This document shows, in pieces, positions 41,291 through 64,000 of a stretch of 64,000 nt of DNA (positions within the stretch are counted from its first letter, which is position 1; every line of letters starts with the position of its first letter). The notes beneath the pieces are model-generated. The model did not search any database, had not been told where the DNA came from, and saw only the letters and a program-made list of their open reading frames with translations. A program made the position numbers and the translations under genes. The stretch is from an uncultured Chitinophaga sp. (lineage in GTDB: Bacteria; Bacteroidota; Bacteroidia; Chitinophagales; LD1), in contig CAYREY010000003.1 of assembly GCA_964423405.1 (NCBI GenBank), forward strand, positions 81,326 through 145,325, given 5' to 3'.

Positions 41291-41310
41291 TCTGCCGCCC
41301 TATACAAAAA

Positions 41311-41340: not shown

Positions 41341-41347
41341 TCTTTTA

Positions 41348-44269: not shown

Positions 44270-44276
44270 GGTGCAG

Positions 44277-44690: not shown

Positions 44691-44737
44691 TGTACTTGGT
44701 TTTGTTTTTATAAATAAATAGTTGTTAGCCGTTATTA

Positions 44738-47700: not shown

Positions 47701-47794
47701 GGTTTACTACCAGGTTTTGGGCTTTAACGGGGGTTGTATTAATAGATAATACATAAAGGAGCAATGCAAGGGCAATGCGTAAACAGTTTTTCAT
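44738..47794 (-). CDS. 1018-aa T9SS type A cargo: N-terminal jelly-roll (NLVVNPSFE type), six SprB-type repeats, type A CTD
   Basis: The C-terminus MSVFPNPNAGSQWTIAVS...VYDAIGRMVYK...APGVYMLKVTKGNKSVSQKLIRL is a type A CTD. The start is set at MKNCLRIALALLLYVLSINTTPVKAQ (ATG 47794). The N-domain QNLVVNPSFE...YFIDDVSIVP is a recurrent Bacteroidota secreted-protein domain. Confidence 0.9.
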   Translation of the reverse strand: MKNCLRIALALLLYVLSINTTPVKAQNLVVNPSFEITSSNCANLGGEGFFTDLAGSWDNASNNVGGDSCSSPDLFSACNTLPIIGGPGPTNMPSAALGFQYSHTGTRHAGIITYEALDEYREYIQGRVSSPLVAGQSYCVSMYVSLGDLMPYATNNMGIYFSNTRYLRDPCPGQTNSGIYVTPQLNYSCNAITDTSAAWVRLQWNYTAAGGETYFTIGNFFNNAGTNIVNTGQPVFPNPFAYYFIDDVSIVPNGCCFAEITARAPFCISDAPATLSVTTGTGTDCNPTLNGTWSGPGVNSSTGLFTPAVAGIGSHIISYTLPCGYTDTITIRVNACATLTACKENNNSVTVSGGTGPYTWQQQVQQQNCSGCIFPALCIPPGCETTTTTWQNFATGTNTTPASYPVRVLDSNGGELIITSAASLQNCASACALTASATPAATTCGNNNGGVTVTTTGATPTGYAWSNGATSATLTSVAAGTYTVTVSASGCTATATANVASSTGITASATSTAAGCTSTGTATANITGGTASAYSWSNGASTQTANSLAAGTYTVTVTSTANCTATASTVVGSSGGVVVSATATNATCSNANGSATVTISSGTATAYNWSNGATGATASNLTGGTYTVTVTGTGGCSATASAVVGNTGAPAITTSATAAGCNGNTGSATVTVTSGTATGYNWSSGATSATASNLAAGNYTVTVTGTGGCTVTASVTVNSSSTLSISASSTNTSCGNVNGTAAVNVTQGTASSYLWSNGATLPNLNSLAAGTYTVTVSDAGGCTATASVIVGGSGTGNVAITTDKTAICPGDSAILCAPSGYQSYLWNNGSTTDCIKVKLAGNYYVTVTDLDNCTATSPATAITAYQQPSVSISVNGDTLVAYNSSSYQWYRDGVLISGATDAIYVPSVSGSYTVVVSNAAGCTAQSLPVVVTITGINDMAKESMSVFPNPNAGSQWTIAVSQSWIGANCEVYDAIGRMVYKEEIKNEHSIVELNIAPGVYMLKVTKGNKSVSQKLIRL
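45413..46504 (-). repeat. Six in-frame ~61-72-aa Thr/Ala/Gly-rich SprB-type repeats
   Basis: The repeated pattern is (T/S)C(G/S)N.NG.A.V....GTA..Y.WSNGA.......L.AGTYTVTV....GC(T/S)ATAS..VG. The complementary strand is open as a shadow ORF (45702..46352). Confidence 0.85.
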
Positions 47795-47940
47795 AAAGTA
47801 CTTAAGTTGTGTTAGCGATTTTGAGCGACCGATTTCGAATATAAAAACAACTATGATATATAAAGCAACAATTTTATGCAAGGTCTTAAAATTGTAAATA
47901 TCTGGTATTCAATTAGGTCATACATTAATAATCGCAAATA

Positions 47941-50900: not shown

Positions 50901-53900
50901 CACCACAGGTTCGTAAATACGACGATCAAACATGGTTAAGCCCGAACCCGATGTAATGTTGTTTACCGGGTTAGCCATATTGGCTACAGGTGTTGCACCG
51001 TTATAGGTAATCCACCATTCGCTGCGGTTGGCAGGCTCAAGGCCATACAGATATTTAATTCTCCAGTTGCTGGTAGTAGAAGTAACTTCAGAACTTACGC
51101 CCGTGCCAAAGTTCTCAGTAAATATAGTAGTGCTGTTTGAAGTAGCATTCAATACCACACTCGAAGAACAGTTAAGTGTCACATCCGATCCGGCATTGGC
51201 TACAGGTACTGGTTTAATTTCTACCGCACCGTTCATAGGTACATTACAAGCGCCGCTATTAACCGATACTGTATAGGTACCGGCTGCACCTGTATTACCA
51301 ATGGTAAGTGCGCCACCCGAACTCACAACCGGCGAACCAAAGGCCGAACCATCACGCATCAGCTGGTAAGTAAGGCCGTTGGTTGAGTTATCCAGCCCTA
51401 CAACTACCGGAGTTAATGCATCATAACATAATTCGGTGTTGGCAGGTGTTACATTGTAAATGTTTACGTTACTGGTAATTACGAAATCGGCTTGCGAGCG
51501 GCAGCTTGGGCTGCTTGAGCAGGCTGCCCAGAAAGTATAGGTACCCTGGGTGTTTGTATTTGCTAAGCCAGAACCAGGTACACCAACCGGATTAAAGGTT
51601 TCGCCATATCCTATCGGCGAACCACCAGATGAACTGGTGTACCATTCTACAGTACCCGGTTGGTTAATCAATACATTACCACCCACCGGAGGTGTTACTG
51701 TCCATGTAAAATCATTATTTACTACATCTGAACCACCGTCGGTAGTAGAGATAAGGGTATAAGTAATTCCGGCTGTAAGGGTAAGCGGGTTACCAATACT
51801 ACCCAGTATAGGCTCACCGCCCGAACCGCTGGCATTATCAGCTCTAAGCAGCGTACCGGTTGCACAGCTACCAGGTGTAAAGCCGCCTGTTACTATATAA
51901 CCTGCGCCATTGTAACTGGTATTGGTATTCATTTCAAATATATAATCGCCGGTTACAGATACCTGGAAAGGTATGGCCGAGTAAGTACGTACAGCTCCGG
52001 TAAATCCACAAGTACTGGTATTAGCAGCACCCGATGGTGTAGCTGCAGTAGGGTCGCCTGCAAGCCAGCCTCCATAAATCTGGTTAGGGCCGGGTATGGT
52101 AGGTATCACAAAATTCTGTATACATACGCTACCGGCATCTACCGATAGGCTACCACTACCACCCTGACAGATAGATACCGGATTAACAGCTAGTGGTGTA
52201 GGTACTGCGTTTACAGTAAGTGTGCCCAACATTGGTGTAACACAATCTGGCACTGCTGTTAATCTTACTTTAACCGAGTGGCTACCTGTAGCAACACCGG
52301 TAAATATCGGGCTGCTCTGGAAAGCACCAGCATCAAGCTGATACTCGTAGTTAAGGCCAACAGGGCTGCTTACCTGTATAGTACCCGATGGTACTGCACA
52401 AGTAGGTTGCGCTGTTACTGTAGCAGTAGGTGCAGGTGGCGGAGAAGGTACCGGGCCCACTGTAGCAGTATTGTTATTAGTACAACCACCTACGTTTGCT
52501 TTCACATTAACTGTATGTGTGGTCGACGATAATCCGCTAAATGAAGTAGAAGCTCCATAAGTACCACCATCAATATTATAGGTGTATGCACCAAGTGGCG
52601 CAGTAACGGTTATAGTACCCGATGGTGTAGTACAGGTTGGGTCTGTTACAGTTAATGTAGGTACCGCAGGTACCGGGTTTAATGTAATATCAACATCATC
52701 GGCAGATGCAACACAAGGTGCGTTGGCAATTGTCCAACGCAAGGTGTATGTACTGCCTACAGTACCACTAAACGATGAGGTAGGACTGGTTGGCGAAGGT
52801 ATAGAACCACCCACACCAGCAATAATGCTCCACGAACCTGTACCAACTGCTGGTGTGTTTCCGGCAAGTGTGGTAGTGTTTCCACAAACCACCTGGTCGG
52901 CACCAGCCGCTGCTGTAGTAGGTGTAGCCACCAAAGTAACTATCACATCATCCGAAGATGGAGTACATGGTGCGTTGGCAATAGTCCAGCGCAGAGTATA
53001 CGCTACACCAGCTGTACCTGTAAAGGTAGATGTTGGGCTGGATGGGGTAGTTACAGTACCACCAGCACCCGATATAATTGACCAGGTACCAGTTCCTATA
53101 GATGGTGTATTAGCAGCCAATGTTGCTGAGCTACCGCACACGCTTTGGTCTGGACCAGCGTTAGAAGTAGTTACGCTCGCAGCAAAACTAATTACCACGT
53201 CATCGGTAGATGCTGTACAAGGTGCATTTGATATAGTCCAACGTAAAGTATAGGTATTCCCCGCTACACCGCTAAATGCCGATGTTGGGCTTGAGGCTGT
53301 TGTTATTGTTCCACCGGCTCCCGAAACAATAGACCATGAGCCAGTACCAATTGCAGGTGTATTACCGGCCAGCGTAGTGCTGGTAGCACATAATGTTTGG
53401 TCGGGGCCTGCATTAGCAGTTGTAGGGCTAGGTGTTAAGGTTATTACCACATCATCGGTAGAAGCGGCACACGATGGGTTAGATATTGTCCAACGCAGAG
53501 TATATGTGTTACCGGCTATACCAATAAATGCTGATGTAGGGCTGGATGGTGTAGAAACAGCACCGCCGCTACCCGATATAACGCTCCAGGCGCCTGTACC
53601 AATAGTTGGTGTATTGGCCGCAAGTGTTGCGTTAACACCACATACTGTTTGATCGGCACCTGCAGCAGCAGTAGTCGGGTTCTGTTTAAACACAACTACC
53701 ACATCATCGCTCGATGATGCACATGGTGCATTGGCAATGGTCCAACGAAGGGTATAGGTATTGCCTGCAACACCACTAAAGGTTGATGTTGGGCTAGATG
53801 GAGTAGTAATAGTACCACCTGTGCCACTTATTATAGTCCAGGTACCTGTACCAACCGATGGGGTATTACCGGCCATAGTAGTACTGCTGCCGCAAATATC

Positions 53901-56900
53901 CTGATCGGCACCGGCATTGGCAGGTGTTACGTTCGATGTGAAGTTTATTACCACATCATCGGTAGAAGCTGCACATGGTGCATTTGATATGGTCCAGCGT
54001 AGGGTGTAAGTAGTACCGGCTACACCGTTAAAGGTAGATGTAGGGCTGGATGGTGTAACAACTGTACCACCGGCTCCAGATATAATGCTCCATGCACCTG
54101 TACCCACACTTGGAGTGTTGGCCGCAAGCGTAGCAGTATTGGCACACAGTGTTTGGTCGGCACCGGCAGCAGCAGTAGATGGTGTAGCTACCAGGTTAAT
54201 AACCACATCATCGGTAGAAACTGCACATGGTGCGTTTGATATGGTCCAGCGAAGTGTATAGCTAACTCCTGCAGTACCGCTAAATGCAGATGTTGGGCTG
54301 GATGGTGTAGTTACTGTACCACCTGCACCCGAAACAATTGACCACGCACCGGTACCAATAGTTGGAGTATTGGCTGCCAGTGTTACGCTTGTACCGCACA
54401 CAGTTTGGTCAGCACCTGCTGTAGAGGTAGTTGGGTTTTGTTTCAATTGTATTACTACATCATCGGTAGAGGCTGTACATGGTGCATTTGATATAGTCCA
54501 GCGTAAGGTATAAGTAGAACCTGCTGTACCGCTGAATGCAGATGTTGGGCTGGAAGGTGTGGTTACGGTACCACCGGTACCCGATACGATTGACCAAGCA
54601 CCGGTACCCACAGTAGGTGTGTTACCTGCCAGGGTTACACTGGTACCGCACACTGTTTGGTCAGCACCAGCTGCAGAGGTTGTTGGGTTGGCTTTAAACG
54701 CTATAATAACATCATCCGATGAAGCAGTACAAGGCGCGTTTGAGATAGTCCAGCGTAAGGTGTACGTTACACCGGCAGTACCGCTAAACGCAGATGTTGG
54801 GCTTGATGGTGTGGTAATAGTACCACCCGCACCACTTATAATACTCCAAGAACCGGTACCTACTACCGGCGTGTTTCCGGCAAGTGTAGTGCTGTTTCCG
54901 CATAAATTCTGGTCTGGGCCTGCATTAGTAGTTGTAGGGTTACCGGTAAAGTTAATCACCACATCATCCGATGAAGCAGTACATGGCGCATTAGTAATCG
55001 TCCAGCGTAGTGTATAGCTGGTACCCGCTGTACCACTAAAAGTAGATGTAGGGCTGTTTGGCGAAGCTACTGTACCACCTGCACCCGATATAATGCTCCA
55101 GGTACCTGTACCTACGCTTGGCGTGTTTCCGGCTAAGGTAGTGCTGGTAGCACACAAAGTTTGATCAGGGCCGGCATTGGTTGTTGTAGGTGTGGCCGTA
55201 AATGTAATAACTACATCATCGGTAGAAGCTGTACATGGTGCGTTCGAAATAGTCCAGCGCAACGTGTAAGTAGTACCGGCAGCACCGCTGAATGTAGAGG
55301 TTGGGCTTGAAGGTGTAGTAACAGTGCCACCTGCACCTGATATGATGCTCCACGCGCCGGTTCCTATGGCAGCAGTATTAGCAGCCAGCGTAGTGCTTGT
55401 TGCACATAGCGTTTGGTCCGGGCCGGCATTAGAAGTAGTAGGGTTCTGTTTAAAGTTTACCACTACATCATCGGTAGATGCTGTACATGGTGCATTGGCA
55501 ATAGTCCAGCGCAGGGTGTATGTACCACCTGCCGTGCCACTAAATGCCGATGTTGGGCTGGATGGAGTAGTGATAGTGCCACCGGTACCACTTATAATGG
55601 TCCAGGTACCTGCGCCAATAGTAGGTGTATTACCTGCAAGGGTAGTACTTGTACCGCATACGTTAATATCGGCACCGGCGTTAGCCGTTGTAGGGTTGGC
55701 TCTCAAGTTTATTACTACATCATCGGTAGATGCGGCACAAGGCGCGTTAGAGATAGTCCAGCGCAGGGTATAAGTAGTGTTAGCTGTACCGGTAAATGTA
55801 GTTCCATTGGCTGCTGAGTTAGCAAAGCTACCACCTGTACCTGATACTACAGACCAAGCACCGGTACCTATTGCAGGTGCATTTGCGGCTAGTGTAGCGC
55901 TGGTAGCACAAACAGATTGGTCAGGACCGGCGTTAGATGTTGTTGGATTTTGTTTGAATGTAACTATTACATCATCGGTAGACGCTGCACAGGCTCCGTT
56001 GGTTATAGTCCAACGCAGGGTATATGTACCACCCGCCGTACCACTAAAAGCCGATGTAGGGCTGGATGGCGTGGTAATGGTACCACCTGTACCACTTATA
56101 ATGGTCCATGCACCTGTACCAACGGTAGGTGTGTTGGCACCAAGCGTGGTACTGTTACCGCATATAGTAATGTCTGAACCCGCGTTGGCTGCTGTTGGAG
56201 CCGAGCTAAGGTTTATTGCTACATCATCGGTAGAGGCCGTACATGGTGCATTTGATATAGTCCAGCGCAAAACATAACCGGTGTTAGCTGTACCGTTAAA
56301 GGTAGTACCATTGGCTGCTGCGTTAACAAAGCTGCCGCCAGCACCAGATACTACCGACCATGCACCTGTACCCACAGCAGGCGCATTTGCTGCCAGTGTA
56401 GCGCTGGTTGCACAAACCGATTGGTCAGGCCCGGCATTAGATGTTGTAGGGTTTGCTTTAAGGCTTATTACTACATCATCGGTAGATGCTGTACATGGCG
56501 CATTGGCTATAGTCCAGCGTAGCGTATAGTTGGTGCCCGCCACACCGGTAAAAGGCGATGTAGGGCTGGTTGGAGTGGTAATAGCACCACCAGCACCGGT
56601 TATTACAGACCAGGTTCCTGAGCCTGACGAAGGAGCGTTACCCGCCAGTGTGGCTCCTGTACCGCATATTGTCTGGTCAGCACCGGCAGCAGAAGTGGTT
56701 GGGTTAGAACGAAGGTTTATAACTACATCATCTGTAGAAGCTGCACAAGGAGAGTTTGAAATTGTCCAGCGCAGGGTATAGCTTGTATTAGCCGTGCCGC
56801 TAAACGCAGTATTATTCAAAGCTGCATTGGTAAAGCTGCCACCTGTACCCGATATAATAGACCAGGCACCTGTACCCACAGTTGGCGCATTACCCGCCAA

Positions 56901-58559
56901 AGTAGCACTGGTAGCACAAACCGATTGATCGGCACCGGCATTCGATGTAGTTGGGTTAGCGCGTAAGGTTATAACCACATCATCGCTCGAAGCAGCACAA
57001 GGCGAGTTGGAAATTGTCCAGCGCAAGGTATAAGTGTTACCAGCCACACCTGTAAAGCCCGATGTAGCACTGGATGGAGTGGTTACCGAACCACCCGAAC
57101 CACTTATAATACTCCACGCACCGGTACCCGATGATGGAGCATTACCCGCCAGGGTTACAGAGGTACCACATACCGTCTGGTCGGCGCCTGCATTGGCAGT
57201 TGTTGGTTGCGAAACTATAGTTAGTACACGATCGTCGAATACCGACGGGCAATCGCCGGTAGGGTCGTTGGTAGTTAAACGTAACGTTACAGTACCAGCG
57301 GTTCCTGAGTTAGGGGTAAATGTAACACTGGCAGGGGTAGTGGTAGCAGCCGCAGTACTTAACTGGGCAGTACTGTTACTTACGGAGCCTGTAACCCCTG
57401 CTATAGACCATGTACCGTTAGAAGCACCTCCACCAATGGTTGCGCCCGATAAAGTATAGGCACTACCTGCGCATATAGTTGCATCGGCACCTGCGTTTAC
57501 GGTAGCCTTGGCATAAACGGTAAACGGTATATCCACAGTACTACCGTTATTGGCCTGTCCACATCCAAAGTCTGAGTTACGTGCCAGAAAATACGTACCT
57601 GGTGTACCTGTTACCGCCGTAGGTAATGCCGATGACAAGGCAGTAGTAGTTTGATAGTTGGTCCAACCCACTACCGGCGATGAAGAACGACGCCAGTAAT
57701 AATAGTAAGTTGCCGAACCGCCACCGTTAGATGAAGCGGCCGTTGTACTTTGTATAGAAGCTGAACCATCCTGACACATGCTGGATGGTGTAGCCGGTGT
57801 TATAGACCCCGGGTTATTATCTCTTACCGTTACAAGGCGGGTTACGCCCGGCCCCCCGGTACCACATACGTTAGTAGCGTTGGTGTGTATTACATATTTA
57901 CCAGGGTTGGCAAAACTATAGTTAAAACTGGCAGTATTGGCGTATCCTTGGTTTACATAATCCCAGCTGTTAACCCAACCGCTACCGTTATCGGTTCCTA
58001 TCCAGTACCAGTAGTTACCGCCCTGTGGGTTACCACCATTTTGAGCTACAGCTATGTTGGCACCTGGACATACTACTATGTTACCGGCGGTACCGTTAAG
58101 CGTCATGTTGCCGTTGGTAGGCGCCGGTACCGAGGTTAGGCGTACTCTCAGTGAACTCGAAACGCCCGAAAAATCGTGCTGCTGGCAGTTATAGCGGTTA
58201 TTTATTACAATATGCCAGCCTGTCCAGGTGGGCGTGTAATTCAAAGAGGAGTTGGTACCAGTACACGAAGGTCCGTTATCATCGTTATAGGCACGGGCTG
58301 TCCATGCAGGGTTTTGGTCGTAAATAGATAGCTGGTTGTCGAAACCTGCACTACCGCAGGTACTGAAATTGTATGTCCATCCGGCATTCATGTACACGTA
58401 GGTATATGTACCAGAGCCTACGCTACGCGTATTATCCACGTTACAAGAACCGTTGGGGTTAATATCTGCAGCTCCTGAAAAACCAGACCAGCTGCACTGG
58501 GCTAAAGCAACATTAACAGCAAATACGCTGCAAAGCAGCATTAGTAGCAATTTTCTCAT
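47991..58559 (-). CDS. 3522-aa T9SS type A cargo; giant Ig-like-repeat adhesin candidate
   Basis: The signal peptide is MRKLLLMLLCSVFAVNVALAQ. The N-terminal domain has the NDDNG-type motif LSIYDQ...AYNDDNG, followed by 18 near-identical 84-aa repeats. An Asp-box jelly-roll region (FTENFG...YSLDNGTTW...VDNINI) and further Ig-like modules follow. The FEVERSTDGQNW...YYYRLKQVDYD module precedes a type A CTD (KEFIPNPTTDRTSL...FYNIVGQKV...ASGTYTAVV...KIVLTR). Confidence 0.93.
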   Translation of the reverse strand: MRKLLLMLLCSVFAVNVALAQCSWSGFSGAADINPNGSCNVDNTRSVGSGTYTYVYMNAGWTYNFSTCGSAGFDNQLSIYDQNPAWTARAYNDDNGPSCTGTNSSLNYTPTWTGWHIVINNRYNCQQHDFSGVSSSLRVRLTSVPAPTNGNMTLNGTAGNIVVCPGANIAVAQNGGNPQGGNYWYWIGTDNGSGWVNSWDYVNQGYANTASFNYSFANPGKYVIHTNATNVCGTGGPGVTRLVTVRDNNPGSITPATPSSMCQDGSASIQSTTAASSNGGGSATYYYYWRRSSSPVVGWTNYQTTTALSSALPTAVTGTPGTYFLARNSDFGCGQANNGSTVDIPFTVYAKATVNAGADATICAGSAYTLSGATIGGGASNGTWSIAGVTGSVSNSTAQLSTAAATTTPASVTFTPNSGTAGTVTLRLTTNDPTGDCPSVFDDRVLTIVSQPTTANAGADQTVCGTSVTLAGNAPSSGTGAWSIISGSGGSVTTPSSATSGFTGVAGNTYTLRWTISNSPCAASSDDVVITLRANPTTSNAGADQSVCATSATLAGNAPTVGTGAWSIISGTGGSFTNAALNNTAFSGTANTSYTLRWTISNSPCAASTDDVVINLRSNPTTSAAGADQTICGTGATLAGNAPSSGSGTWSVITGAGGAITTPTSPTSPFTGVAGTNYTLRWTIANAPCTASTDDVVISLKANPTTSNAGPDQSVCATSATLAANAPAVGTGAWSVVSGAGGSFVNAAANGTTFNGTANTGYVLRWTISNAPCTASTDDVAINLSSAPTAANAGSDITICGNSTTLGANTPTVGTGAWTIISGTGGTITTPSSPTSAFSGTAGGTYTLRWTITNGACAASTDDVIVTFKQNPTTSNAGPDQSVCATSATLAANAPAIGTGAWSVVSGTGGSFANSAANGTTFTGTANTTYTLRWTISNAPCAASTDDVVINLRANPTTANAGADINVCGTSTTLAGNTPTIGAGTWTIISGTGGTITTPSSPTSAFSGTAGGTYTLRWTIANAPCTASTDDVVVNFKQNPTTSNAGPDQTLCATSTTLAANTAAIGTGAWSIISGAGGTVTTPSSPTSTFSGAAGTTYTLRWTISNAPCTASTDDVVITFTATPTTTNAGPDQTLCATSTTLAGNTPSVGTGTWSIISGAGGTVASPNSPTSTFSGTAGTSYTLRWTITNAPCTASSDDVVINFTGNPTTTNAGPDQNLCGNSTTLAGNTPVVGTGSWSIISGAGGTITTPSSPTSAFSGTAGVTYTLRWTISNAPCTASSDDVIIAFKANPTTSAAGADQTVCGTSVTLAGNTPTVGTGAWSIVSGTGGTVTTPSSPTSAFSGTAGSTYTLRWTISNAPCTASTDDVVIQLKQNPTTSTAGADQTVCGTSVTLAANTPTIGTGAWSIVSGAGGTVTTPSSPTSAFSGTAGVSYTLRWTISNAPCAVSTDDVVINLVATPSTAAAGADQTLCANTATLAANTPSVGTGAWSIISGAGGTVVTPSSPTSTFNGVAGTTYTLRWTISNAPCAASTDDVVINFTSNVTPANAGADQDICGSSTTMAGNTPSVGTGTWTIISGTGGTITTPSSPTSTFSGVAGNTYTLRWTIANAPCASSSDDVVVVFKQNPTTAAAGADQTVCGVNATLAANTPTIGTGAWSVISGSGGAVSTPSSPTSAFIGIAGNTYTLRWTISNPSCAASTDDVVITLTPSPTTANAGPDQTLCATSTTLAGNTPAIGTGSWSIVSGAGGTITTASSPTSAFSGVAGNTYTLRWTISNAPCTASTDDVVISFAASVTTSNAGPDQSVCGSSATLAANTPSIGTGTWSIISGAGGTVTTPSSPTSTFTGTAGVAYTLRWTIANAPCTPSSDDVIVTLVATPTTAAAGADQVVCGNTTTLAGNTPAVGTGSWSIIAGVGGSIPSPTSPTSSFSGTVGSTYTLRWTIANAPCVASADDVDITLNPVPAVPTLTVTDPTCTTPSGTITVTAPLGAYTYNIDGGTYGASTSFSGLSSTTHTVNVKANVGGCTNNNTATVGPVPSPPPAPTATVTAQPTCAVPSGTIQVSSPVGLNYEYQLDAGAFQSSPIFTGVATGSHSVKVRLTAVPDCVTPMLGTLTVNAVPTPLAVNPVSICQGGSGSLSVDAGSVCIQNFVIPTIPGPNQIYGGWLAGDPTAATPSGAANTSTCGFTGAVRTYSAIPFQVSVTGDYIFEMNTNTSYNGAGYIVTGGFTPGSCATGTLLRADNASGSGGEPILGSIGNPLTLTAGITYTLISTTDGGSDVVNNDFTWTVTPPVGGNVLINQPGTVEWYTSSSGGSPIGYGETFNPVGVPGSGLANTNTQGTYTFWAACSSSPSCRSQADFVITSNVNIYNVTPANTELCYDALTPVVVGLDNSTNGLTYQLMRDGSAFGSPVVSSGGALTIGNTGAAGTYTVSVNSGACNVPMNGAVEIKPVPVANAGSDVTLNCSSSVVLNATSNSTTIFTENFGTGVSSEVTSTTSNWRIKYLYGLEPANRSEWWITYNGATPVANMANPVNNITSGSGLTMFDRRIYEPVVPGDYAWDAGTLDEIAYNTTPVDARLYTSVNLSFNYQVGGTYSGSDVYDYLQVMYSLDNGTTWVPISEGNNAGTFNLYRGMGSTNAFFANAPTSGTANITMPAAVVGKRFLLGFRWVNDGDLNGAYVGGPMVDNINITGTASYNWSPTAGVTGSGTASPTITQGGTYTVVVTAGNGCTASDQVVVTAASVPNISISGNQDVCSGGSATLTAIVTGGTGAITNILWERSANGGGSWSTVQSTTSSTYNTSTALGIGNYLYRATVTMSTNCTNTSSNVSVDVKADPAITLEPVDVYLCSGGNATLTVAASGGAPNLLYEWEYDNGTIVTNSNPTGVTYSGETTTDLSITTAANAPAITVPLWAKVYSTGPGCDDAYSLFANVTILPDPTVSNPTPATQTGLCSGGTASPISVTANGGTGAYSYQWYSNTTNSTSGGTLIGGANNASYTPPVVAGTTYYYCEIGQAGSGCGPVTTAATAVVTAGTPVVANVVVDECMNFAVGDKYYVLVTGSGGTPPYTYPGSFYTSTTNQGIHELNAGASGTYTVTDAAGCSTTSSAVTAPTGRPNDIVMTSATGNITVDCWINDYNKWVTFRDAVTNNAIMAINDNHSNLGLVTVDVYKDATPPVIYNNPLATNCTWTEHTAMRRHFKMTSTLAPTTGVDVMLFFSDDDYNTLKADAWNNNTGYPNPDYACTELDDVYNFNQLYVTKYTGNNEDGNYLNNTPSGLYRVFGDNTTPNRPLIKGEYTGSNTGFQGIYGGAQTHHYVQMTVTEFSEFWLHGSQQSQPLPVEMIYLQADVMNNAYIRLSWATAIEVNNRGFEVERSTDGQNWTQIGFVEGHNNATTQHNYNYDDMTVAAGVVYYYRLKQVDYDNAFEYTDIVSARIVGEATFSVKEFIPNPTTDRTSLIVTGTKEQEISIAFYNIVGQKVLESNHVVNKGANTIAFDLARLASGTYTAVVSSANEVYTQKIVLTR
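52671..57206 (-). repeat. In-frame tandem array, 18 x 252 bp (84 aa each)
   Basis: Unit consensus: PTT.NAG.DQ..C...(A/T)TLA.N.P..GTG.WS(I/V)(I/V)SG.GG....P.SPTS.F.G.AG..YTLRWTI.NAPC.AS.DDV(V/I)I.... The boundaries were verified by hand translation: Pro452 is at 57206 and Val1963 at 52671. A degenerate 19th copy precedes the array (aa ~351-451). Confidence 0.92.
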
Positions 58560-58914: not shown

Positions 58915-61629
58915 TTAGTTTTCCAATTCCTGCAATACCTTCAAGGCTGGTGGGTAGCCCGGCTTTACTTCAAGTGCTTTGCCTGCATAAATACGGGCAC
59001 TATCGGTTTGGCCTATACCTTTAAAAGTGAGAGCAAGATTGGTATATGGCTCTGGTATATATGGTATACGACTGGCTGCCAGTTTGTTAACCGCAATCGA
59101 CTTGTCGTATTCCTCCATTTTGAAATACAGAAAACTTAGCTGGTCGTAACCTTTATAATCGGTTGGGTTTACCTCTATGCGTTTTGCAAAGTAAGGCTCT
59201 GCTTCTGTATACTTATTTTGCGCGTAATACAAATCGGCTACAAAAGCATGTATATCGGTATTGGTAGAGTCAATAGCAATTGCTTTTTGGTATGCTGCAA
59301 TTGCGCTGTCGGGCATATTTAATAATGAGTAAACTTTACCCATATAGTAAGCCGCATTAAAAAACTGGGGATAAATTTCAAGTGCTTTTGAAAAGTGTAC
59401 GGCAGCTTGTTTTCGCATTTCAGTCTGCTTCTGCACATTACTATCCATGTTAAACGACTCTATAGCGAGGTGGTTACCCAATAATCCATGTGCCTGTGCC
59501 GAGTTATTTACATAGTCAATATCATGGCTCATCAGGGTAATGCTGTCTTTCCACCACAGGCTTCGGCTAAACGAAAGCGTAGTGTAAACAGCAAACATTA
59601 CACCTACAACAAGCAGCATATTCTTATTAGCGGTTAGTAAAGTATAGCTTGTATTATCAAAACCGGTTTTAAATAACATAGCAAGCAATGCTATTATAGC
59701 CATAACAAAACCCAGGCTTGGCAATAACATAAACCGCTCTGCTACCATACCTGGTATAGGGTAAAAAAGATTAGATATTGCAATAATCGACACAAGATAG
59801 ATTGCCAGCGCTGTAAAAACCAGCTTGTTTCTGAAAAAGAAATACAAGCACAGTGCCGCCAGCAAAAAATGCAACAGTAACGAAACCAGCGGTAAAACAC
59901 TGAATAACGAAGTAGGTTCAATATACCTGTACCCGTAATAAAAACTTAATGGGTAGGGAACCACAGTTTTCTGCAGGTAACGCAAAACTATTACCAGCGA
60001 AGTTCCAGCCCTAAGTTCCAACGGCGATTGGGTTGTTACCGGCGCCTCTACATACTCAAGCGGTCGGGTATCTTTTCCGGTTACCACATCAGTAACCGAT
60101 GCCGGCAACTCAGCAACATAGGTGGTGGTTGTATCTTTAGCAGGCTTAGCTAACAATACCAGCGCTATCAGGCAGTATACGATATACGAAAAAAAACGCT
60201 TTTGCTTGTCCTGTGTTGCAAAGTAACCGGTTAGCAATATTGCAAACAATACTATTACCAACGACATTGCACCCCAGTAACGCAAAATCACAAACAGTAC
60301 TATTAATGCAGTAACAGCAAATACGCCTGCAACTATGTAGCGCCGGCTTACTTCCTTGTGGGCCACAAAAAAGCCAAATGCAATAATGGCGGCCACGGCC
60401 GGACGGTATTCAGGAAGTGGTAACAGCAATAACAGAACCAACAAAGCCACACTCATTAATTTTTGCCTGTTGCTGGCAGCATTAGAGTAATAAAATGCCA
60501 GTAAGATTACCCCGGAGCCCAGTAACGTATTGGTATGATAAACCCAATACACGCCAGCAATACCCAATATTGCCAGAACAAAATTTACAGCTGCCAGTTT
60601 TTTATCGGGCACCACAGCCGCCAATGCCATAAAAGTTACCAGCACTATATTCACAAGCGGAGCTTTATAATACAACAATACCGCATACACCACCACCGCA
60701 ACGGCTGTAATCACTGCATAAAACACATTACGTGTATTATTTGTATCTGCTGCAAACATCAGCAGGTCTGTATCAGAAGCTGAAGAGGCTTTAGCACGTA
60801 AAAAAGCATACAACTCCTTTCGATATAAAAACAACAACTCCACTCCTATTCCTGCAAATACATAGGGCAGCAGATTTCTGAATTGAAATGTTTTAGGCAA
60901 TACAACCAAACAGGCCAACAGTAAAGCAGCCAGTACACCCATTACATAGGCCGGTTTTTTATCAATAAAAAGCACAACCGGAATAATAAATGCTAAGGGT
61001 AAAATTGTAAGCTTTGAAAAAAGCGCCAGTAAAAAAAACAAACACACCAGCAGCAACCTGTGTAACTTTGCCGTGGTGCTATATAATATTGCCTCTCTAA
61101 AAGCCAACAGCCCGAATATAAAAGCCAGTATTTCATCGCGGTTTTTAATACTGGCTACTACCTCGGTATGTACCGGATGCACCGCAAATAAAAGGGTAAT
61201 AAAAAACGATAAAATATAACTGTACCCTGCAAAAAGCCTTCGCAATACACGGTACAATAAAAAGCACATAAACCCATAAAGCAACACATTAATTGCGTGG
61301 CTCACCCAAACATGCTCACCTAAAAACTGGTGTTCAATAGCAAAACTTACCAGTACTACCGGGCGGTAATCGTAGGCATACCCCATGGCATCCTGATAAT
61401 ACTGGCTGGTTAATATTTCAGGTATGCCGGCTAACCCTTTAGATGTTAATGCATGGCCACGCGTAACCAGTTCATCATCCATGTTATAGTTATTGCCTAT
61501 AGTTACCGCATATACTATAACAGGTATAACAAATGAAAGCAAACAAAAATTAGACACTAAAGACGTTAAGAGCGATTTTTCACCTCTCTGTGCGTGAGTG
61601 GGGGCGCTATGTGTGCTTTTTGTTTTCAC
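58915..61629 (-). CDS. TMTC-like polytopic GT-C-fold glycosyltransferase candidate with C-terminal TPR repeats
   Basis: The N-terminal landmarks are collinear with TMTC/DUF1736-type proteins: YNMDDELV, DYRPVVLVSF, HAINVLLYG and LLFAVHPVHTEVVASIKNRDEIL. About 15 or more hydrophobic helices follow, then roughly 200 aa of TPR units at the C-terminus. The start is a GTG 8 nt after the GT2 stop. Confidence 0.65.
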   Translation of the reverse strand: MKTKSTHSAPTHAQRGEKSLLTSLVSNFCLLSFVIPVIVYAVTIGNNYNMDDELVTRGHALTSKGLAGIPEILTSQYYQDAMGYAYDYRPVVLVSFAIEHQFLGEHVWVSHAINVLLYGFMCFLLYRVLRRLFAGYSYILSFFITLLFAVHPVHTEVVASIKNRDEILAFIFGLLAFREAILYSTTAKLHRLLLVCLFFLLALFSKLTILPLAFIIPVVLFIDKKPAYVMGVLAALLLACLVVLPKTFQFRNLLPYVFAGIGVELLFLYRKELYAFLRAKASSASDTDLLMFAADTNNTRNVFYAVITAVAVVVYAVLLYYKAPLVNIVLVTFMALAAVVPDKKLAAVNFVLAILGIAGVYWVYHTNTLLGSGVILLAFYYSNAASNRQKLMSVALLVLLLLLPLPEYRPAVAAIIAFGFFVAHKEVSRRYIVAGVFAVTALIVLFVILRYWGAMSLVIVLFAILLTGYFATQDKQKRFFSYIVYCLIALVLLAKPAKDTTTTYVAELPASVTDVVTGKDTRPLEYVEAPVTTQSPLELRAGTSLVIVLRYLQKTVVPYPLSFYYGYRYIEPTSLFSVLPLVSLLLHFLLAALCLYFFFRNKLVFTALAIYLVSIIAISNLFYPIPGMVAERFMLLPSLGFVMAIIALLAMLFKTGFDNTSYTLLTANKNMLLVVGVMFAVYTTLSFSRSLWWKDSITLMSHDIDYVNNSAQAHGLLGNHLAIESFNMDSNVQKQTEMRKQAAVHFSKALEIYPQFFNAAYYMGKVYSLLNMPDSAIAAYQKAIAIDSTNTDIHAFVADLYYAQNKYTEAEPYFAKRIEVNPTDYKGYDQLSFLYFKMEEYDKSIAVNKLAASRIPYIPEPYTNLALTFKGIGQTDSARIYAGKALEVKPGYPPALKVLQELEN

Positions 61630-61637
61630 CGTTGCTG

Positions 61638-62585
61638 CTATTTAATAAATGCATGGTAAGCCTCGCGCAAAATATACATTAGCGAGTAGTACACATAATA
61701 AAATATGTATCCGATCTTTCTAAATAAAGACACCTCTCCTATTGTATCAGAGTAAAGGATGAATTTGTATTCATGCGCTATTGCCTCGTATATAAGCTTC
61801 CGCATACCGTTGTAGGCCGGTAACGATAAAAAATACCTGAGCGCCTTTATATTGCTAAGGTTAAACTTTAAAGGGTCTACCTTTTTTGTAACCCCTCCCT
61901 TATGCTCGCGGTATAGCGACCATACCTCATTAAAATACTTAAATGCAGATCCACGGATCATCAGTTGCTGCAAAATCCACGAGCCCGAAAGGTTTAACCG
62001 TGGGTACTCTGCGGCGGCCTGCTGGCAACGTTCACGGCTTACTACCAACGAACTGTGGGGGATAATTTTACGTTGTAGCCCATCCCATGGATAATAGATG
62101 CTGGTATATTGGTAGCACTGTGAATAATAACGATACCCCTCAAACAACCAGTTTATTTTCTTTGGTTCTTCGTTATTTGTTGCAACAATCTCTATAGCAG
62201 CATCGTGAAAACAACCTGCCATATCGGGGTTAGCCTGCAAATATTCTACCTGCTTTTGAAGTTTACCATCATACAGCCATTTATCGTCTCCATCCATAAA
62301 AGCTATATACCTGCCGGTGGCATGGCTTACTATCTGTAAACCATTCTGGTAGTTTCCCTTGTTCCTTTCTGCAAGAAACAACCTTATTTTTCCTTTATGT
62401 TGCTCTTCAAAATCTTTAAGCACCTCTACAGTACCATCGGTTGAGCCATCATCAAATACCAGCACTTCTACACCAAAATCAGTTTTCTGGCCCATCACAC
62501 TCTCAAGCGCATCGGCAATAAACTCCTTGTGATTATAGGTTAGTACACATACACTTACCTCATAGCCCGCAATTTCACTTACCAT
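61638..62585 (-). CDS. Glycosyltransferase family 2 protein
   Basis: GT2 motifs are present: VSVCVLTYNHKEFI, LVFDDGSTDGT and FMDGDDKW (DxD). The start ATG overlaps the upstream stop (ATGGTAA). Confidence 0.85.
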   Translation of the reverse strand: MVSEIAGYEVSVCVLTYNHKEFIADALESVMGQKTDFGVEVLVFDDGSTDGTVEVLKDFEEQHKGKIRLFLAERNKGNYQNGLQIVSHATGRYIAFMDGDDKWLYDGKLQKQVEYLQANPDMAGCFHDAAIEIVATNNEEPKKINWLFEGYRYYSQCYQYTSIYYPWDGLQRKIIPHSSLVVSRERCQQAAAEYPRLNLSGSWILQQLMIRGSAFKYFNEVWSLYREHKGGVTKKVDPLKFNLSNIKALRYFLSLPAYNGMRKLIYEAIAHEYKFILYSDTIGEVSLFRKIGYIFYYVYYSLMYILREAYHAFIK

Positions 62586-63370
62586 CCTAAATCCTTTAAC
62601 ATAAGTTTTATCGAATCAAGGTCTTTCACAGCTATGCCACCCTTTAGCAAGTGCCTGTCGCCCCAAAAAGCGTTACGACCATGCATTATACGCTTATCCT
62701 GCATAAAAACTGCATCCCCTTTTTTAAGGTAAACAGGCTGTGTTAATCCAGCCCTTACTATATAGTTTTCCAAAAAATCGTGAAACTCCTCGCACATAGC
62801 CAGCACTTCGGGTGTATTATCGGGTGCTACTACGGCATAATTCCAGTGCAATACCACACCAACTTCATCTTCAGATATTATTGTTGCTTTGTTTCTGAAA
62901 ACCGGGTGCGGTGCCTTGCCAAATATCACTTCCTCTGTCCTAAGCCTTGTCAGTAGCTCGGGTTTATATTCAGTTAATATATCCACTATCAATCCCGAAT
63001 CGACAAAAGTGGTAGCACCACCATATTTTGCCTCCTGGGCGCAAATCAGCAACACAATATCCAATGGTATACTGGCATTACAATAATCTGTATGCAAAGG
63101 CTGGGCTTTATTACTGTGTTTGTAAGTATCGTTCACGTAACGCTCATCATACTTCACCATAGTCCAGCTATCATGTATCAATGTTCGGGTAACAGGGTCT
63201 ATATCTTTACGAAAAAGCATACCAACCTTCTCTCCAAGCCCTACATATAGTTTATCAATATCTGCTGTCTCTGGCACATTGGCAATGTGTACTACCTTAT
63301 TCTCCGAAACCAAATGATTAATATCTTCGCCCAGCGAATCGTAATAGTGAGTTGTTTTTATGAAATTCAT
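62579..63370 (-). CDS. Fe(II)/2-oxoglutarate-dependent oxygenase, TauD/TfdA/BBOX-like
   Basis: An HxD motif (PLHTDY), GGATTFVD, a distal His and an Arg (RIMHGRNAF) are in the order expected for the TauD-type facial triad. Confidence 0.6.
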   Translation of the reverse strand: MNFIKTTHYYDSLGEDINHLVSENKVVHIANVPETADIDKLYVGLGEKVGMLFRKDIDPVTRTLIHDSWTMVKYDERYVNDTYKHSNKAQPLHTDYCNASIPLDIVLLICAQEAKYGGATTFVDSGLIVDILTEYKPELLTRLRTEEVIFGKAPHPVFRNKATIISEDEVGVVLHWNYAVVAPDNTPEVLAMCEEFHDFLENYIVRAGLTQPVYLKKGDAVFMQDKRIMHGRNAFWGDRHLLKGGIAVKDLDSIKLMLKDLGW

Positions 63371-63430
63371 TTAAATATGCCTCATTAATTTCTACACCCA
63401 AACAAATAATACCGTTTTATTGACAATACC

Positions 63431-64000
63431 ATGATAGTAGCTGAAATACTGAAAAAACTGCCGGAAACATGTACATGGATGGTGCTGTTCAACCTATCAA
63501 AAATAAAAACATTTGCCGATGATGAGACCATCAAAAGAATGTATTTTTTGAACTCAAATGTACAGCTAAATGAGTTTACTCATGTTGTACTTACCAGCCA
63601 GGGCAGGTACGTAGCACCGGTTAACGGTAACTACCTTGTACATGGCGAAGAACTGGTTACATACGATTATACTGATACGGACACACTTGCCAAACGTTAC
63701 AACCACCTGTTGGCCGAGTTTAATGTAAATAATGCCGACAGCCTTGCTGTAGCAGTTGACAATGAATACGGTGATGTATGTCTGTACATAGAAATTGATA
63801 ATGCACTGGCAACTGCAAAAAGTGTGTTTAAAACCCCACCATCTAAATTGCATTACGACCTGCTGAATGCAGTTGGTGTAACGTATAAAGGCGGGCTACA
63901 AAGCAATGCAGGTTTTGTAGCCAGTTATCAAAATTCGCTGCCACTACATATCCAGTCGGCAATTTTTGCCGATTTTTCCCGAACCGACAATTGCAATTAC
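63431..64000 (+). CDS. Hypothetical protein, 3'-truncated by the window edge
   Basis: It is absent from the ORF track because it has no in-window stop. Hand translation from the ATG at 63431 gives MIVAEILKKLPETCTWMVLFNLSKIKTFADDETIKRMYFLNSNVQLNEFTHVVLTSQGRYVAPVNG... and stays open for 190 codons to the edge. I recognise no family. It is divergent from the oxygenase-GT2-GT-C operon. Confidence 0.55.
   Translation, partial: MIVAEILKKLPETCTWMVLFNLSKIKTFADDETIKRMYFLNSNVQLNEFTHVVLTSQGRYVAPVNGNYLVHGEELVTYDYTDTDTLAKRYNHLLAEFNVNNADSLAVAVDNEYGDVCLYIEIDNALATAKSVFKTPPSKLHYDLLNAVGVTYKGGLQSNAGFVASYQNSLPLHIQSAIFADFSRTDNCNY

What the first reader, a model, noticed from the sequence alone, without database searches (positions are those of the whole stretch)
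58915..63370. A coupled operon of a 2OG-oxygenase, a GT2 and a TMTC-like GT-C/TPR protein abuts the 3522-aa Ig-repeat adhesin: a candidate periplasmic protein-glycosylation system
Three minus-strand genes are packed for co-translation. The oxygenase stop and GT2 start overlap as ATGGTAA, and the GT2 stop lies 8 nt before the GTG start of the 904-aa membrane protein. The operon ends 355 bp upstream of the giant T9SS cargo gene on the same strand.

The 904-aa protein has the landmark order of eukaryotic TMTC-type O-mannosyltransferases (DDE, YRP, HxxNxLL, FAVHPxHTExV) followed by C-terminal TPRs. In animals, TMTC enzymes O-mannosylate the Ig-like EC repeats of cadherins using a polyprenol-phosphate sugar. 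A GT2 is the usual maker of such lipid-linked donors. The added TauD-like oxygenase has no counterpart in the eukaryotic pathway. It could hydroxylate the substrate or the sugar.

A dedicated modification system for Thr/Ser-rich Ig-repeat adhesins would differ from the known general Bacteroidota O-glycosylation pathway.
Basis: partly seen in the sequence, partly recalled or inferred. Interest (0 to 1): 0.7.

Follow-up and report, generated by a model that had tools for sequence, protein, structure and literature searches.

The report
TMTC-like glycosyltransferase beside giant adhesin
A bacterial relative of the animal enzymes that put mannose on cadherins sits in a tight three-gene operon just upstream of a giant secreted adhesin that has lost every site for the phylum's general O-glycosylation system, which suggests, but does not prove, a dedicated adhesin-glycosylation system.

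Summary
The three minus-strand genes, the ATGGTAA overlap, the 8-nt gap and the 355-nt spacer before the 3522-aa T9SS cargo are all as described.

The 904-aa protein is a TMTC-type GT-C enzyme. A profile of its family scores 54-82 bits on all 12 animal TMTC1-4 N-domains tested. It scores 2.4 bits or less on ArnT, PglB, STT3B and Pmt1. hhalign gives 98.8% probability, E = 1.2e-16. It differs from TMTCs by a ~270-residue insertion of extra membrane helices, loss of both proposed metal ligands (KE to K-x, DW to YY) and no Pfam DUF1736 hit.

Linkage to giant adhesins recurs. In 80 unselected loci, giants occupy 5 of 38 +1 same-strand positions versus 4 of 695 elsewhere (p = 3e-5), in at least five lineages.

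The linked giants lack D-S/D-T dipeptides, the core of the general Bacteroidota O-glycosylation sequon (18 observed, 177 expected). Other giant cargos do not (143 vs 120).

The "trio" is not a fixed unit. TauD-GT2 is a two-gene module tied to a divergent UbiA/acyl-carrier operon and occurs without the GT-C. The GT2 does not resemble polyprenyl-phosphate sugar synthases.

Verdict: partly supported; a new variant of a known kind.

The parts
62579..63370 (-). TauD/TfdA-family Fe(II)/2-oxoglutarate oxygenase, 263 aa, cytoplasmic (no signal peptide)
   Evidence: Pfam PF02668 scores 82.4 bits, E 6.5e-23. H93-x-D95 and H230 are conserved in orthologues at 44-93% identity. The closest solved relatives are weak: DfmD and gamma-butyrobetaine dioxygenase.
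61638..62585 (-). GT2 (GT-A fold) glycosyltransferase, 315 aa; its start overlaps the TauD stop (ATGGTAA)
   Evidence: Pfam PF00535 E 8.3e-28. The DGDD motif at 98-101 is invariant. The best relatives are TuaG, EpsE, chondroitin and heparosan synthases; DPMS (2e-6) and ArnC (1e-4) rank far lower. The C-terminal hydrophobic tail is not conserved as a TM segment.
58915..61629 (-). TMTC-type GT-C glycosyltransferase with C-terminal TPR domain, 904 aa (GTG start 8 nt after the GT2 stop)
   Evidence: The family HMM scores 54-82 bits on 12 animal TMTC N-domains and 2.4 bits or less on ArnT, PglB, STT3B and Pmt1. hhalign gives 98.8%, E 1.2e-16, 411 columns. 27 of 51 family members hit Pfam PMT_2. Foldseek top hits for the N-terminal model are mostly GT-C enzymes.
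60145..60957 (-). Insertion of about 270 residues (residues ~225-495) of poorly conserved extra membrane helices, absent from animal TMTCs
   Evidence: It appears as a gap in the hhalign alignment to TMTCs. pLDDT is 45-70 and there are no conserved columns.
58918..59544 (-). TPR domain (residues ~696-904), inferred to be periplasmic
   Evidence: Pfam TPR_1, TPR_2 and TPR_8 hits at E 1e-13 to 1e-16. The AF2 model shows helical pairs at pLDDT above 85. The location is inferred from homology to the TMTC topology (PMC7801869).
58560..58914 (-). 355-nt spacer between the GT-C gene and the giant adhesin gene
   Evidence: Length read directly. No terminator-like site lies in the spacer. Equivalent spacers in related loci are 48-722 nt.
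47991..58559 (-). 3522-aa T9SS cargo adhesin: signal peptide, PKD/Ig-like repeats, type A C-terminal sorting domain; no D-S or D-T dipeptide
   Evidence: Pfam K319L-like_PKD 2e-54, Ig_3, Por_Secre_tail 6e-9. Ser+Thr is 26.9%. D[ST] is 0 observed versus 37.7 expected. It is homologous to the giants that follow TMTC-like genes in L001, L026, L046 and L065.
52710..57512 (-). Array of about 19 tandem 84-aa PKD-like repeats (residues ~350-1950)
   Evidence: Chunk-versus-self BLASTP shows period 84 at 55-87% identity. The repeat consensus has 10 columns with at least 90% Ser/Thr.
48003..48224 (-). T9SS C-terminal sorting domain of the giant (residues 3446-3519)
   Evidence: Pfam PF18962, 36.5 bits.
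63431..64000 (+). 5' part (190 codons, runs off the window) of the divergent ~575-aa gene that heads the UbiA / haem-oxygenase-like operon
   Evidence: It is 96% identical to the L002 neighbour and 42% identical to the 571-aa and 554-aa genes of L090 and L091. L095 carries an identical TauD and shows 575 aa, then UbiA, then Haem_oxygenas_2 beyond the window end. The 95-aa minus-strand ORF at 63566-63853 is its shadow.
63371..63430 (.). 60-nt divergent intergenic region between the TauD operon and the UbiA operon
   Evidence: Read directly.

Best explanation
**What the 904-aa protein is (shown by sequence).** It is a bacterial TMTC-type GT-C glycosyltransferase. Its N-terminus is cytoplasmic. 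Its catalytic loops (D51-D52, Y88-R89-P90, H151/H154-T-E156, R164, K206, the E528...Y564-Y565-G loop, E631-R632) and its C-terminal TPR domain face the periplasm.

**What it most likely does (inferred).** It takes a single sugar from a polyprenyl-phosphate carrier. It transfers the sugar to Ser/Thr of the giant adhesin encoded 355 nt downstream. This would happen while the Sec-exported adhesin is in the periplasm, before T9SS export. The TPR domain would hold the PKD/Ig-like repeats. This would parallel animal TMTCs acting on cadherin EC domains. The adhesin has lost every D-S/D-T site, so it escapes the general Bacteroidota O-glycosylation system. Any O-glycan it carries would then come from another enzyme.

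**TauD and GT2 (role unresolved).** Both are cytoplasmic. They form a conserved two-gene module that belongs with the divergent operon (~575-aa protein, UbiA, haem-oxygenase-like enzyme, with acyl-AMP ligase, ACP and a PseH-like acyltransferase seen in the longer relatives). They most likely make or tailor a sugar or lipid-linked precursor. In this lineage the GT-C gene has been fused onto that module.
For: **TMTC identity**
- Family HMM scores of 54-82 bits on TMTCs versus 2.4 bits or less on ArnT, PglB, STT3B and Pmt1.
- hhalign covers TMTC1 residues 4-434 at 98.8% probability.
- The conserved motifs are invariant in 82 homologues.
- Foldseek returns mostly GT-C enzymes for the N-terminal model, with protein-modifying ones first.

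**Operon**
- 7-nt overlap and 8-nt gap.
- The same three genes occur in L002 and L095.
- TauD and GT2 also lie in one operon with a TMTC-like gene in a Flavobacteriales MAG, L081.

**Adhesin link**
- A 41%-identical GT-C is followed by a 3165-aa Por_Secre_tail protein that is 58% identical to the window giant over the best 813-residue segment.
- Giants of at least 1400 aa occupy 5 of 38 +1 same-strand positions versus 4 of 695 other positions (Fisher p = 3e-5).
- The linked GT-Cs fall in at least five lineages of the family tree.
- In L052 and L060 the spacers are only 48 and 65 nt.

**Sequon loss**
- D[ST] is 18 observed versus 177 expected in the nine linked giants, and 143 versus 120 in eight other giant ORFs, most of them confirmed T9SS cargos.
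- The reverse dipeptide is at normal frequency.
- Other +1 genes are not depleted.

**Precedents**
- TMTC and cadherins (PMC7801869).
- The S. mutans Pgf cluster: GT-A PgfS and GT-C PgfM1/M2 encoded with the adhesins they glycosylate (PMC12041528).
Against: - No glycan has been observed.
- About 85% of TMTC-like genes in the sample have no giant neighbour. Many sit in operons with GT8-like, radical-SAM and sugar-nucleotide genes, which would also fit a glycan or lipid acceptor.
- Homologues of the giant's C-terminal module occur without a TMTC-like neighbour (L093, L094).
- The 355-nt spacer may hold the adhesin's own promoter.
- Both residues proposed as metal ligands in TMTCs are replaced.
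- A large insertion is present.
- Pfam DUF1736 does not hit.
- The donor-making enzyme is not identified, and the GT2 does not look like one.
- Loss of the sequon is also seen in abundant T9SS cargo of P. gingivalis without any TMTC-like link (PMC8729774). It could therefore reflect surface abundance only.
Confidence: 0.45

Rival explanations
1. The GT-C/TPR protein modifies a glycan or lipid (O-antigen, lipid A, capsule or another envelope glycoconjugate). It would be the periplasmic step of the pathway encoded by TauD, GT2 and the divergent UbiA/acyl-carrier operon. The adhesin gene is merely a neighbour.
For: - TauD-GT2 is constantly paired with the UbiA operon. In L090 it is followed by Wzt-type ABC transporter, PglD-like, GT2 and radical-SAM genes typical of glycan clusters.
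- Many family members sit behind GT8-like, epimerase and UDP-glucose dehydrogenase genes.
- GT2 + GT-C pairs that decorate glycans are common (Gtr-type systems; established knowledge).
- TPR domains also occur in polysaccharide-export scaffolds.
Against: - The catalytic module is specifically TMTC-like. It scores at noise level against ArnT.
- Only 1 of 51 members hits a Wzy_C-type model, and the window protein does not.
- The rival explains neither the enrichment of giant adhesins at +1 nor their sequon loss.
Confidence: 0.25
2. The TMTC-like proteins are broad-specificity periplasmic protein O-glycosyltransferases. They would act on many exported or unfolded proteins, or on T9SS cargos in general, as fungal and actinobacterial PMTs do. 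They would not be enzymes dedicated to the neighbouring adhesin.
For: - Several paralogues occur per genome and contexts vary.
- Most copies lack a giant neighbour.
- Four further Thr-rich T9SS cargos lie directly downstream in the window.
Against: - Adjacency to giants recurs in separate lineages. In some lineages the spacers are operon-like at 48-65 nt.
- Only the adjacent giants, not the other cargos in the window, have lost D[ST].
Confidence: 0.15
3. The protein is a catalytically altered or inactive GT-C that serves as a TPR chaperone or holdase for the giant adhesin in the periplasm.
For: - Both residues proposed to bind the metal in TMTCs are replaced (KE to K-x, DW to YY).
- Inactive GT-C folds exist, for example PIG-U (PMC7801869).
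Against: - The DD, YRP, HPxHTE, K206 and ER motifs are invariant across 82 sequences at about 32% mean identity. This indicates selection on an active site.
- Y564-Y565-G is itself invariant, which suggests a changed but functional site.
Confidence: 0.08

Closest known systems
Animal TMTC1-4 (CAZy GT105), Dol-P-Man-dependent O-mannosyltransferases of cadherin/protocadherin EC domains
   Same: - The architecture is the same: an N-terminal GT-C module followed by TPRs on the extracytoplasmic side.
- Sequence homology is significant over the whole catalytic module (54-82 bits; hhalign E 1.2e-16).
- Shared motifs are DD, (S)YRP, HxxN, LLFAxHPxHTE, R-x-D/E, K of KE(T/Q), the E/D-x-P...R..T...P..L loop, SNLF and AER..Y/L.PS.G.
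- The candidate substrate is a very large adhesion protein built of Ig-like beta-sandwich repeats.
   Different: - The bacterial protein has a ~270-residue insertion of extra helices.
- The Glu of KE and the Asp-Trp of DW are replaced.
- Pfam DUF1736 does not hit.
- It has only about 5-6 TPRs.
- The lipid carrier would be undecaprenyl-type, and the sugar is unknown.
- It is encoded in an operon with a 2OG oxygenase and a GT2.
- The substrate relationship is inferred from gene order only.
Streptococcus mutans Pgf system (PgfS, PgfE, PgfM1, PgfM2 with adhesins Cnm, CnaB, CbpA)
   Same: - A GT-A enzyme and GT-C enzymes are encoded in one cluster with the Ser/Thr-rich adhesins they glycosylate outside the cytoplasm (PMC12041528).
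- The window GT2 has a weak N-terminal hit to the PgfS model (2e-11).
   Different: - The Pgf GT-Cs are YfhO-type without TPRs.
- The host is Gram-positive and the adhesins are sortase-anchored.
- The cluster has an epimerase instead of an oxygenase.
Three-component periplasmic glycosylation systems (GtrA/GtrB/Gtr*, ArnC/ArnT, Ppm1/Pmt)
   Same: A GT2 gene lies directly upstream of a GT-C gene.
   Different: - The GT2 lacks the C-terminal TM hairpin and ranks far from DPMS and ArnC.
- There is no GtrA-like flippase gene.
- The GT-C scores at noise level against ArnT and Pmt1.
General O-glycosylation system of Bacteroidota (sequon D-(S/T)-(A/I/L/V/M/T...))
   Same: It occurs in the same phylum and compartment and acts on the same class of exported proteins.
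   Different: - The adhesin has no D-S/T at all, so it cannot be a substrate.
- That system transfers a preassembled oligosaccharide.
- Sequon loss in abundant T9SS cargo has been reported for the gingipains (PMC8729774).

Membership tests
TMTC-type GT-C (GT105) | Significant sequence similarity of the membrane module to TMTC1-4, exceeding that to other GT-C families | tested here: met
   HMM scores 54-82 bits on 12 TMTCs versus 2.4 bits or less on ArnT, PglB, STT3B and Pmt1. hhalign gives 98.8%, E 1.2e-16. TMTC sequences came from PMC7801869 supplementary file 2.
TMTC-type GT-C (GT105) | GT-C module followed by C-terminal TPR repeats | tested here: met
   Pfam TPR hits at residues 720-900. 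The AF2 model agrees.
TMTC-type GT-C (GT105) | Motifs M1 (DD), M2 (SHKSYRP) and M7 (ERxxY) | tested here: met
   D51, D52, Y88, R89, P90 and R632 are invariant, and E631 is present (family consensus A-D/E-R). For M2 only the YRP part is kept.
TMTC-type GT-C (GT105) | Proposed metal ligands: Glu of KE(T/Q)xxT and Asp of DW | tested here: not met
   K206 is invariant but the next residue varies (Leu here). DW aligns to the invariant Y564-Y565.
TMTC-type GT-C (GT105) | Pfam DUF1736 (PF08409) hit | tested here: not met
   The window protein has no hit at E up to 10. The family is not among the 25 (of 30) families listed for the 51 members. The loop is nevertheless aligned by hhalign.
TMTC-type GT-C (GT105) | Eleven-TM topology | tested here: not met
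   About 270 extra residues with roughly 8-11 additional predicted helices lie between the EL3 and EL4 equivalents. Their number and the parity of the topology were not resolved.
TMTC-type GT-C (GT105) | Transfers mannose from a polyprenyl-phosphate donor to Ser/Thr of Ig-like adhesion domains | not testable with these tools
   Needs biochemistry or glycoproteomics.
ArnT / GT83 lipid A glycosyltransferase | Sequence similarity to ArnT | tested here: not met
   2.4 bits against 5EZM. The N-terminal profile has no PDB sequence hit. ArnT ranks 20th by Foldseek at E 0.1.
O-antigen ligase / Wzy_C | Wzy_C-type domain | tested here: not met
   The window protein has no hit. One of 51 family members hits Wzy_C_2 at 1.4e-4.
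Polyprenyl-phosphate sugar synthase GT2 (GtrB/DPMS/ArnC type) | GT2 catalytic domain plus C-terminal TM hairpin; closest to DPMS/ArnC/GtrB | tested here: not met
   The C-terminal tail is not conserved as a TM segment. Chondroitin and heparosan synthases and GalT1 score 1e-21 to 1e-11, versus DPMS 2e-6 and ArnC 1e-4, all over the N-terminal half only. This does not exclude the activity, because TM-less DPM1-type enzymes exist (my own knowledge).
TauD/TfdA Fe(II)/2OG oxygenases | Pfam model above its cut-off and the H-x-D...H iron triad | tested here: met
   82.4 bits against a cut-off of 27. H93, D95 and H230 are invariant.
T9SS type A cargo | N-terminal signal peptide and C-terminal Por_Secre_tail domain | tested here: met
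   PF18962 scores 36.5 bits at residues 3446-3519. The N-terminus reads MRKLLLMLLCSVFAVNVALAQ.
Substrate of the general Bacteroidota O-glycosylation system | Presence of D-(S/T)-(A/I/L/V/M/T...) sequons | tested here: not met
   0 observed versus 16.9 expected for the three-residue motif. 0 versus 37.7 for D[ST].

The most novel reading that the evidence does not exclude
Bacteroidota have a family of TMTC-type protein O-glycosyltransferases. Some members are each dedicated to a giant T9SS adhesin encoded next to them. These adhesins have been purged of the general O-glycosylation sequon so that only the dedicated enzyme decorates their Ig/PKD-like repeats. This would be the bacterial counterpart, and possibly the evolutionary source, of the animal TMTC-cadherin O-mannosylation system.
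Probability: 0.3. Interest if true: 0.85.

Novelty: new variant of a known kind. Interest (0 to 1): 0.68.

Why it matters
Animal TMTCs were recognised only recently as the enzymes behind cadherin O-mannosylation. No TMTC chain appeared in my searches of the PDB copy. Their prokaryotic homologues have been mentioned in the literature but not studied (PMC7801869).

A bacterial TMTC-type enzyme with an obvious candidate substrate next door would give a tractable model for how these enzymes recognise folded Ig-like repeats. It would add a second, substrate-dedicated O-glycosylation route to Bacteroidota. It could also explain how giant gliding or adhesion proteins are protected or tuned in the periplasm before T9SS export.

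The complete absence of D-S/D-T in the linked adhesins is a simple sequence signature. It can be used to find further members and to design the decisive glycoproteomic test.

Tried and rejected
1. Single-sequence Pfam and PDB searches of the membrane domain found nothing. A profile of the first 231 residues against PDB sequences also found nothing.
2. Foldseek with the full-length model was swamped by TPR proteins. It had to be repeated with an N-terminal model.
3. I tried to show that the 54-aa fragment upstream of the L001 GT-C is a GT2 C-terminus. BLASTP found no match and the contig ends there.
4. A metagenome scan with the TauD alignment returned a single 1.2-kb contig.
5. The 95-aa ORF at 63566-63853 is rejected as a gene. 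It is the shadow of a + strand gene.
6. The sigma-70 promoter scan is not informative for Bacteroidota, and a TAnnTTTG search of the spacer found nothing.
7. The reciprocal test started from the giant's C-terminal module. It hit mostly truncated C-terminal fragments. The three contexts looked up were a contig end (L092), a fragmented giant without a TMTC-like gene (L093) and a stand-alone 575-aa protein (L094). Linkage is therefore not universal.
8. NCBIfam gave no specific name for the UbiA, the 571-aa, the haem-oxygenase-like or the 391-aa proteins. The chemistry of the TauD/UbiA module stays open.
9. An O-antigen ligase or ArnT identity was considered and rejected.

Full report
**1. Observation**

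The ORF list and the sequence confirm four consecutive minus-strand genes:
- a 263-aa ORF at 62579-63370;
- a 315-aa ORF at 61638-62585;
- a 904-aa ORF at 58915-61629, with a GTG start;
- a 3522-aa ORF at 47991-58559.

The first two overlap as ATGGTAA. The GT2 stop is followed after 8 nt by the GTG. The spacer to the giant gene is 355 nt and holds no terminator-like site.

Pfam assigns TauD (82 bits), Glycos_transf_2 (98 bits) and TPR repeats at residues ~720-900 of the 904-aa protein. For the giant it assigns K319L-like PKD, Ig_3 and the T9SS sorting domain.

The giant holds about 19 tandem 84-aa repeats at 55-87% identity. It is 26.9% Ser+Thr.

The public gene call for the 904-aa protein starts at Met50 and would delete TM1 (P0001; L095). 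The 906-907-aa orthologues support the GTG start.

**2. Identity of the 904-aa protein**

Its membrane part gives no Pfam or PDB sequence hit on its own.

It belongs to a large Bacteroidota family of ~930-aa "TPR proteins" (one search listed 732 hits at E ≤ 0.001). The relatives found are mostly from Chitinophagales and Flavobacteriales. Twenty-seven of 51 members hit Pfam PMT_2.

AlphaFold models have mean pLDDT of 76-78. Residues 30-250 and 530-700 are confident. For the N-terminal model, Foldseek returns mostly GT-C enzymes at the top: STT3, PglB, Pmt2, DPY19, ArnT. This establishes the fold but not the subfamily.

To test the TMTC claim I took the published alignment of 24 animal TMTC N-domains and four solved GT-Cs from PMC7801869.
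- An HMM of the bacterial family scores 54-82 bits on all 12 TMTCs tested.
- It scores 2.4 bits or less on ArnT, PglB, STT3B and Pmt1.
- hhalign gives 98.8% probability and E = 1.2e-16 over 411 columns, covering TMTC1 residues 4-434.

The published TMTC motifs map as follows:

| TMTC motif | Window protein |
|---|---|
| DD | D51-D52 |
| SYRP | Y88-R89-P90 |
| LLFAVHPIHTE | LLFAVHPVHTE (146-156) |
| RxD | R164-D165-E166 |
| K of KE(T/Q) | K206 |
| SNLF | 613-616 |
| AERxxYxPSxG | 630-640 |

All of these are invariant or nearly so in 82 homologues.

The differences from TMTCs are real:
- The Glu of KE is not conserved.
- DW is replaced by an invariant Y564-Y565.
- Pfam DUF1736 does not hit.
- About 270 residues of poorly conserved helices are inserted (residues ~225-495).

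The paper itself notes uncharacterised full-length prokaryotic homologues, so their existence is not new.

**3. The "trio"**

TauD and GT2 homologues were found next to the GT-C only in two places among 88 loci. One is the close relative L002. The other is a Flavobacteriales MAG (L081), where four genes lie between them: a radical SAM/SPASM enzyme, a GT32-like protein, a 391-aa unknown and a GT8-like protein.

A search from TauD found about 100 small homologues. In three contexts at 50-66% identity TauD is always followed by the GT2. It is always preceded, divergently, by a ~560-aa protein, UbiA, a haem-oxygenase-like protein, an acyl-AMP ligase, an ACP and a ~205-220-aa protein. That last protein is PseH-like in L090 and hits Acetyltransf_3 in L091. 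A TMTC-like gene is absent within 10 kb in two of the three.

The window has the same divergent gene. It runs on the + strand from 63431 to the window end and is 42% identical to those of L090 and L091. A contig with an identical TauD shows the 575-aa gene, UbiA and the haem-oxygenase-like gene beyond the window end.

TauD-GT2 is thus a module of a cytoplasmic precursor pathway. The GT-C is joined to it in this lineage.

The GT2's hydrophobic tail is not conserved. Its profile ranks glycan-elongating GT2s far above DPMS and ArnC. The assumption that it makes the lipid-linked donor is therefore unsupported, although it is not excluded.

The oxygenase has no signal peptide, so it cannot act on the exported adhesin. 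A role on a sugar, or on an acyl or aminoacyl group bound to the carrier protein, is a guess based on its neighbours.

**4. Link to the adhesin**

The 41%-identical orthologue P0004 is followed after 448 nt by a 3165-aa Por_Secre_tail protein. That protein is 58% identical to the window giant over the best 813-residue segment.

I then used the 80 GTDB loci retrieved only by N-terminal similarity.
- Genes of at least 1400 aa occupy 5 of 38 evaluable +1 same-strand positions, versus 4 of 695 other positions (Fisher p = 3e-5).
- Spacers range from 48 to 722 nt.
- Several of these giants share the window giant's C-terminal region.
- The linked GT-Cs are spread over at least five lineages of a neighbour-joining tree.

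Linkage is not universal. About 85% of family members have other neighbours. Two homologues of the giant's C-terminal module are unlinked.

**5. An unexpected signature**

The giant contains no D-S or D-T dipeptide.
- It has 140 Asp and 37.7 D[ST] expected.
- Outside the repeat array, 0 are observed versus 18.2 expected.
- DT and DS are its two most depleted dipeptides.
- The reverse [ST]D is normal (32 versus 37.7).

D-(S/T)-(A/I/L/V/M/T...) is the sequon of the general Bacteroidota O-glycosylation system (PMC8729774).

The nine giants that follow TMTC-like genes have 18 D[ST] versus 176.8 expected. Eight other giant ORFs, most of them confirmed T9SS cargos and including the four others in the window, have 143 versus 120.5. 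The one depleted "other" giant (L073) lies three genes downstream of a TMTC-like gene. Other +1 genes are not depleted.

The same kind of motif loss is known for the gingipains. There it was read as selection against O-glycosylation of abundant surface cargo (PMC8729774). The phenomenon is therefore known. Its restriction here to the TMTC-linked giants is new to me.

The counts within one protein are not independent because of the repeats. The giants are also partly homologous.

**6. Mechanism and rivals**

The best-supported reading is as follows. A TMTC-type enzyme with periplasmic active site and TPRs O-glycosylates the neighbouring giant adhesin from a polyprenyl-phosphate sugar. The adhesin avoids the general system. 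TauD, GT2 and the UbiA operon supply or tailor a precursor.

What is shown:
- the gene order;
- the enzyme family;
- the recurrent linkage;
- the sequon loss.

What is inferred:
- the topology, by homology;
- the acceptor;
- the donor;
- the roles of TauD and GT2.

The rivals are a glycan or lipid acceptor, a broad-specificity enzyme, and a non-catalytic TPR chaperone. They are weighed in the structured fields.

**7. Comparison and novelty**

The closest known systems are two.
- Animal TMTC-cadherin: the same enzyme family, by test.
- The S. mutans Pgf cluster: GT-A plus GT-C encoded with their adhesin substrates, but with YfhO-type GT-Cs (PMC12041528).

My library searches found no paper linking TMTC-like enzymes with Bacteroidota or T9SS cargo. 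I rate this a new variant of a known kind, of good interest, with the function still unproven.

Noticed in passing
window 47991-58559; also L001 3356-12853, L026 13333-20577, L052 12826-20646, L060 7544-15193, L065 13056-20438, L046 8560-12870: Giant T9SS adhesins that directly follow a TMTC-like gene almost completely lack D-S/D-T dipeptides (18 observed, 177 expected). Other giant cargos have them at or above expectation (143 vs 120).
   Followed up: yes
window 63431-64000 (+) and 63566-63853 (-); L095 1-3535: A + strand gene runs off the window end. It is the first gene of a conserved divergent operon: a ~575-aa unknown, UbiA and a haem-oxygenase-like enzyme, with acyl-AMP ligase, ACP and a PseH-like acyltransferase in the longer relatives. 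The 95-aa minus-strand ORF is its shadow. The product of this operon is unknown.
   Followed up: partly
window 36961-47881 and 17361-22373: Four more T9SS cargo genes lie nearby: 1047 aa, 982 aa, 1420 aa (SprB repeats, CHU_C) and 1670 aa. The 1420-aa and 982-aa proteins are 62% identical over 824 residues, and the 1047-aa and 982-aa proteins 53% over 495. This is a paralogous adhesin cluster directly downstream of the giant.
   Followed up: partly
window 58915-61629: Public gene calls start this protein at Met50 (855 aa). That removes the first transmembrane helix, which must precede the catalytic DD loop.
   Followed up: yes
L004 5421-12868; L081 4010-11196; also L013, L015, L020, L025, L033, L045, L079: Many Chitinophagales MAGs share an operon: twitch-type radical SAM/SPASM, a ~392-aa unknown, a ~350-aa unknown, a GT8-like ~304-aa protein and a TMTC-like GT-C. 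In L004 a UbiA and an Asn-synthase-like gene lie upstream. Downstream genes are often a 343-aa protein or a 799-aa protein (CarboxypepD_reg hit in L003/L004).
   Followed up: partly
L052 7099-12778; L042 9914-15552; L082 9914-15573: Tandem pairs of TMTC-like genes occur. In L052 the pair is followed after 48 nt by an ORF of more than 2600 aa.
   Followed up: no
window 47991-58559, protein residues 589-620: Pfam reports an APOBEC2 match (42 bits summed, no single significant stretch) inside the PKD repeat array. It is almost certainly an artefact of summing weak hits over 19 near-identical repeats.
   Followed up: no
locus of P0127 (ENA ERZ1426713, no DNA held): TauD-GT2 is followed by a convergent 1998-aa Ig-domain T9SS cargo gene. 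A 974-aa TPR protein lies 7.7 kb away on the opposite strand. This looks like a looser version of the window's arrangement.
   Followed up: no
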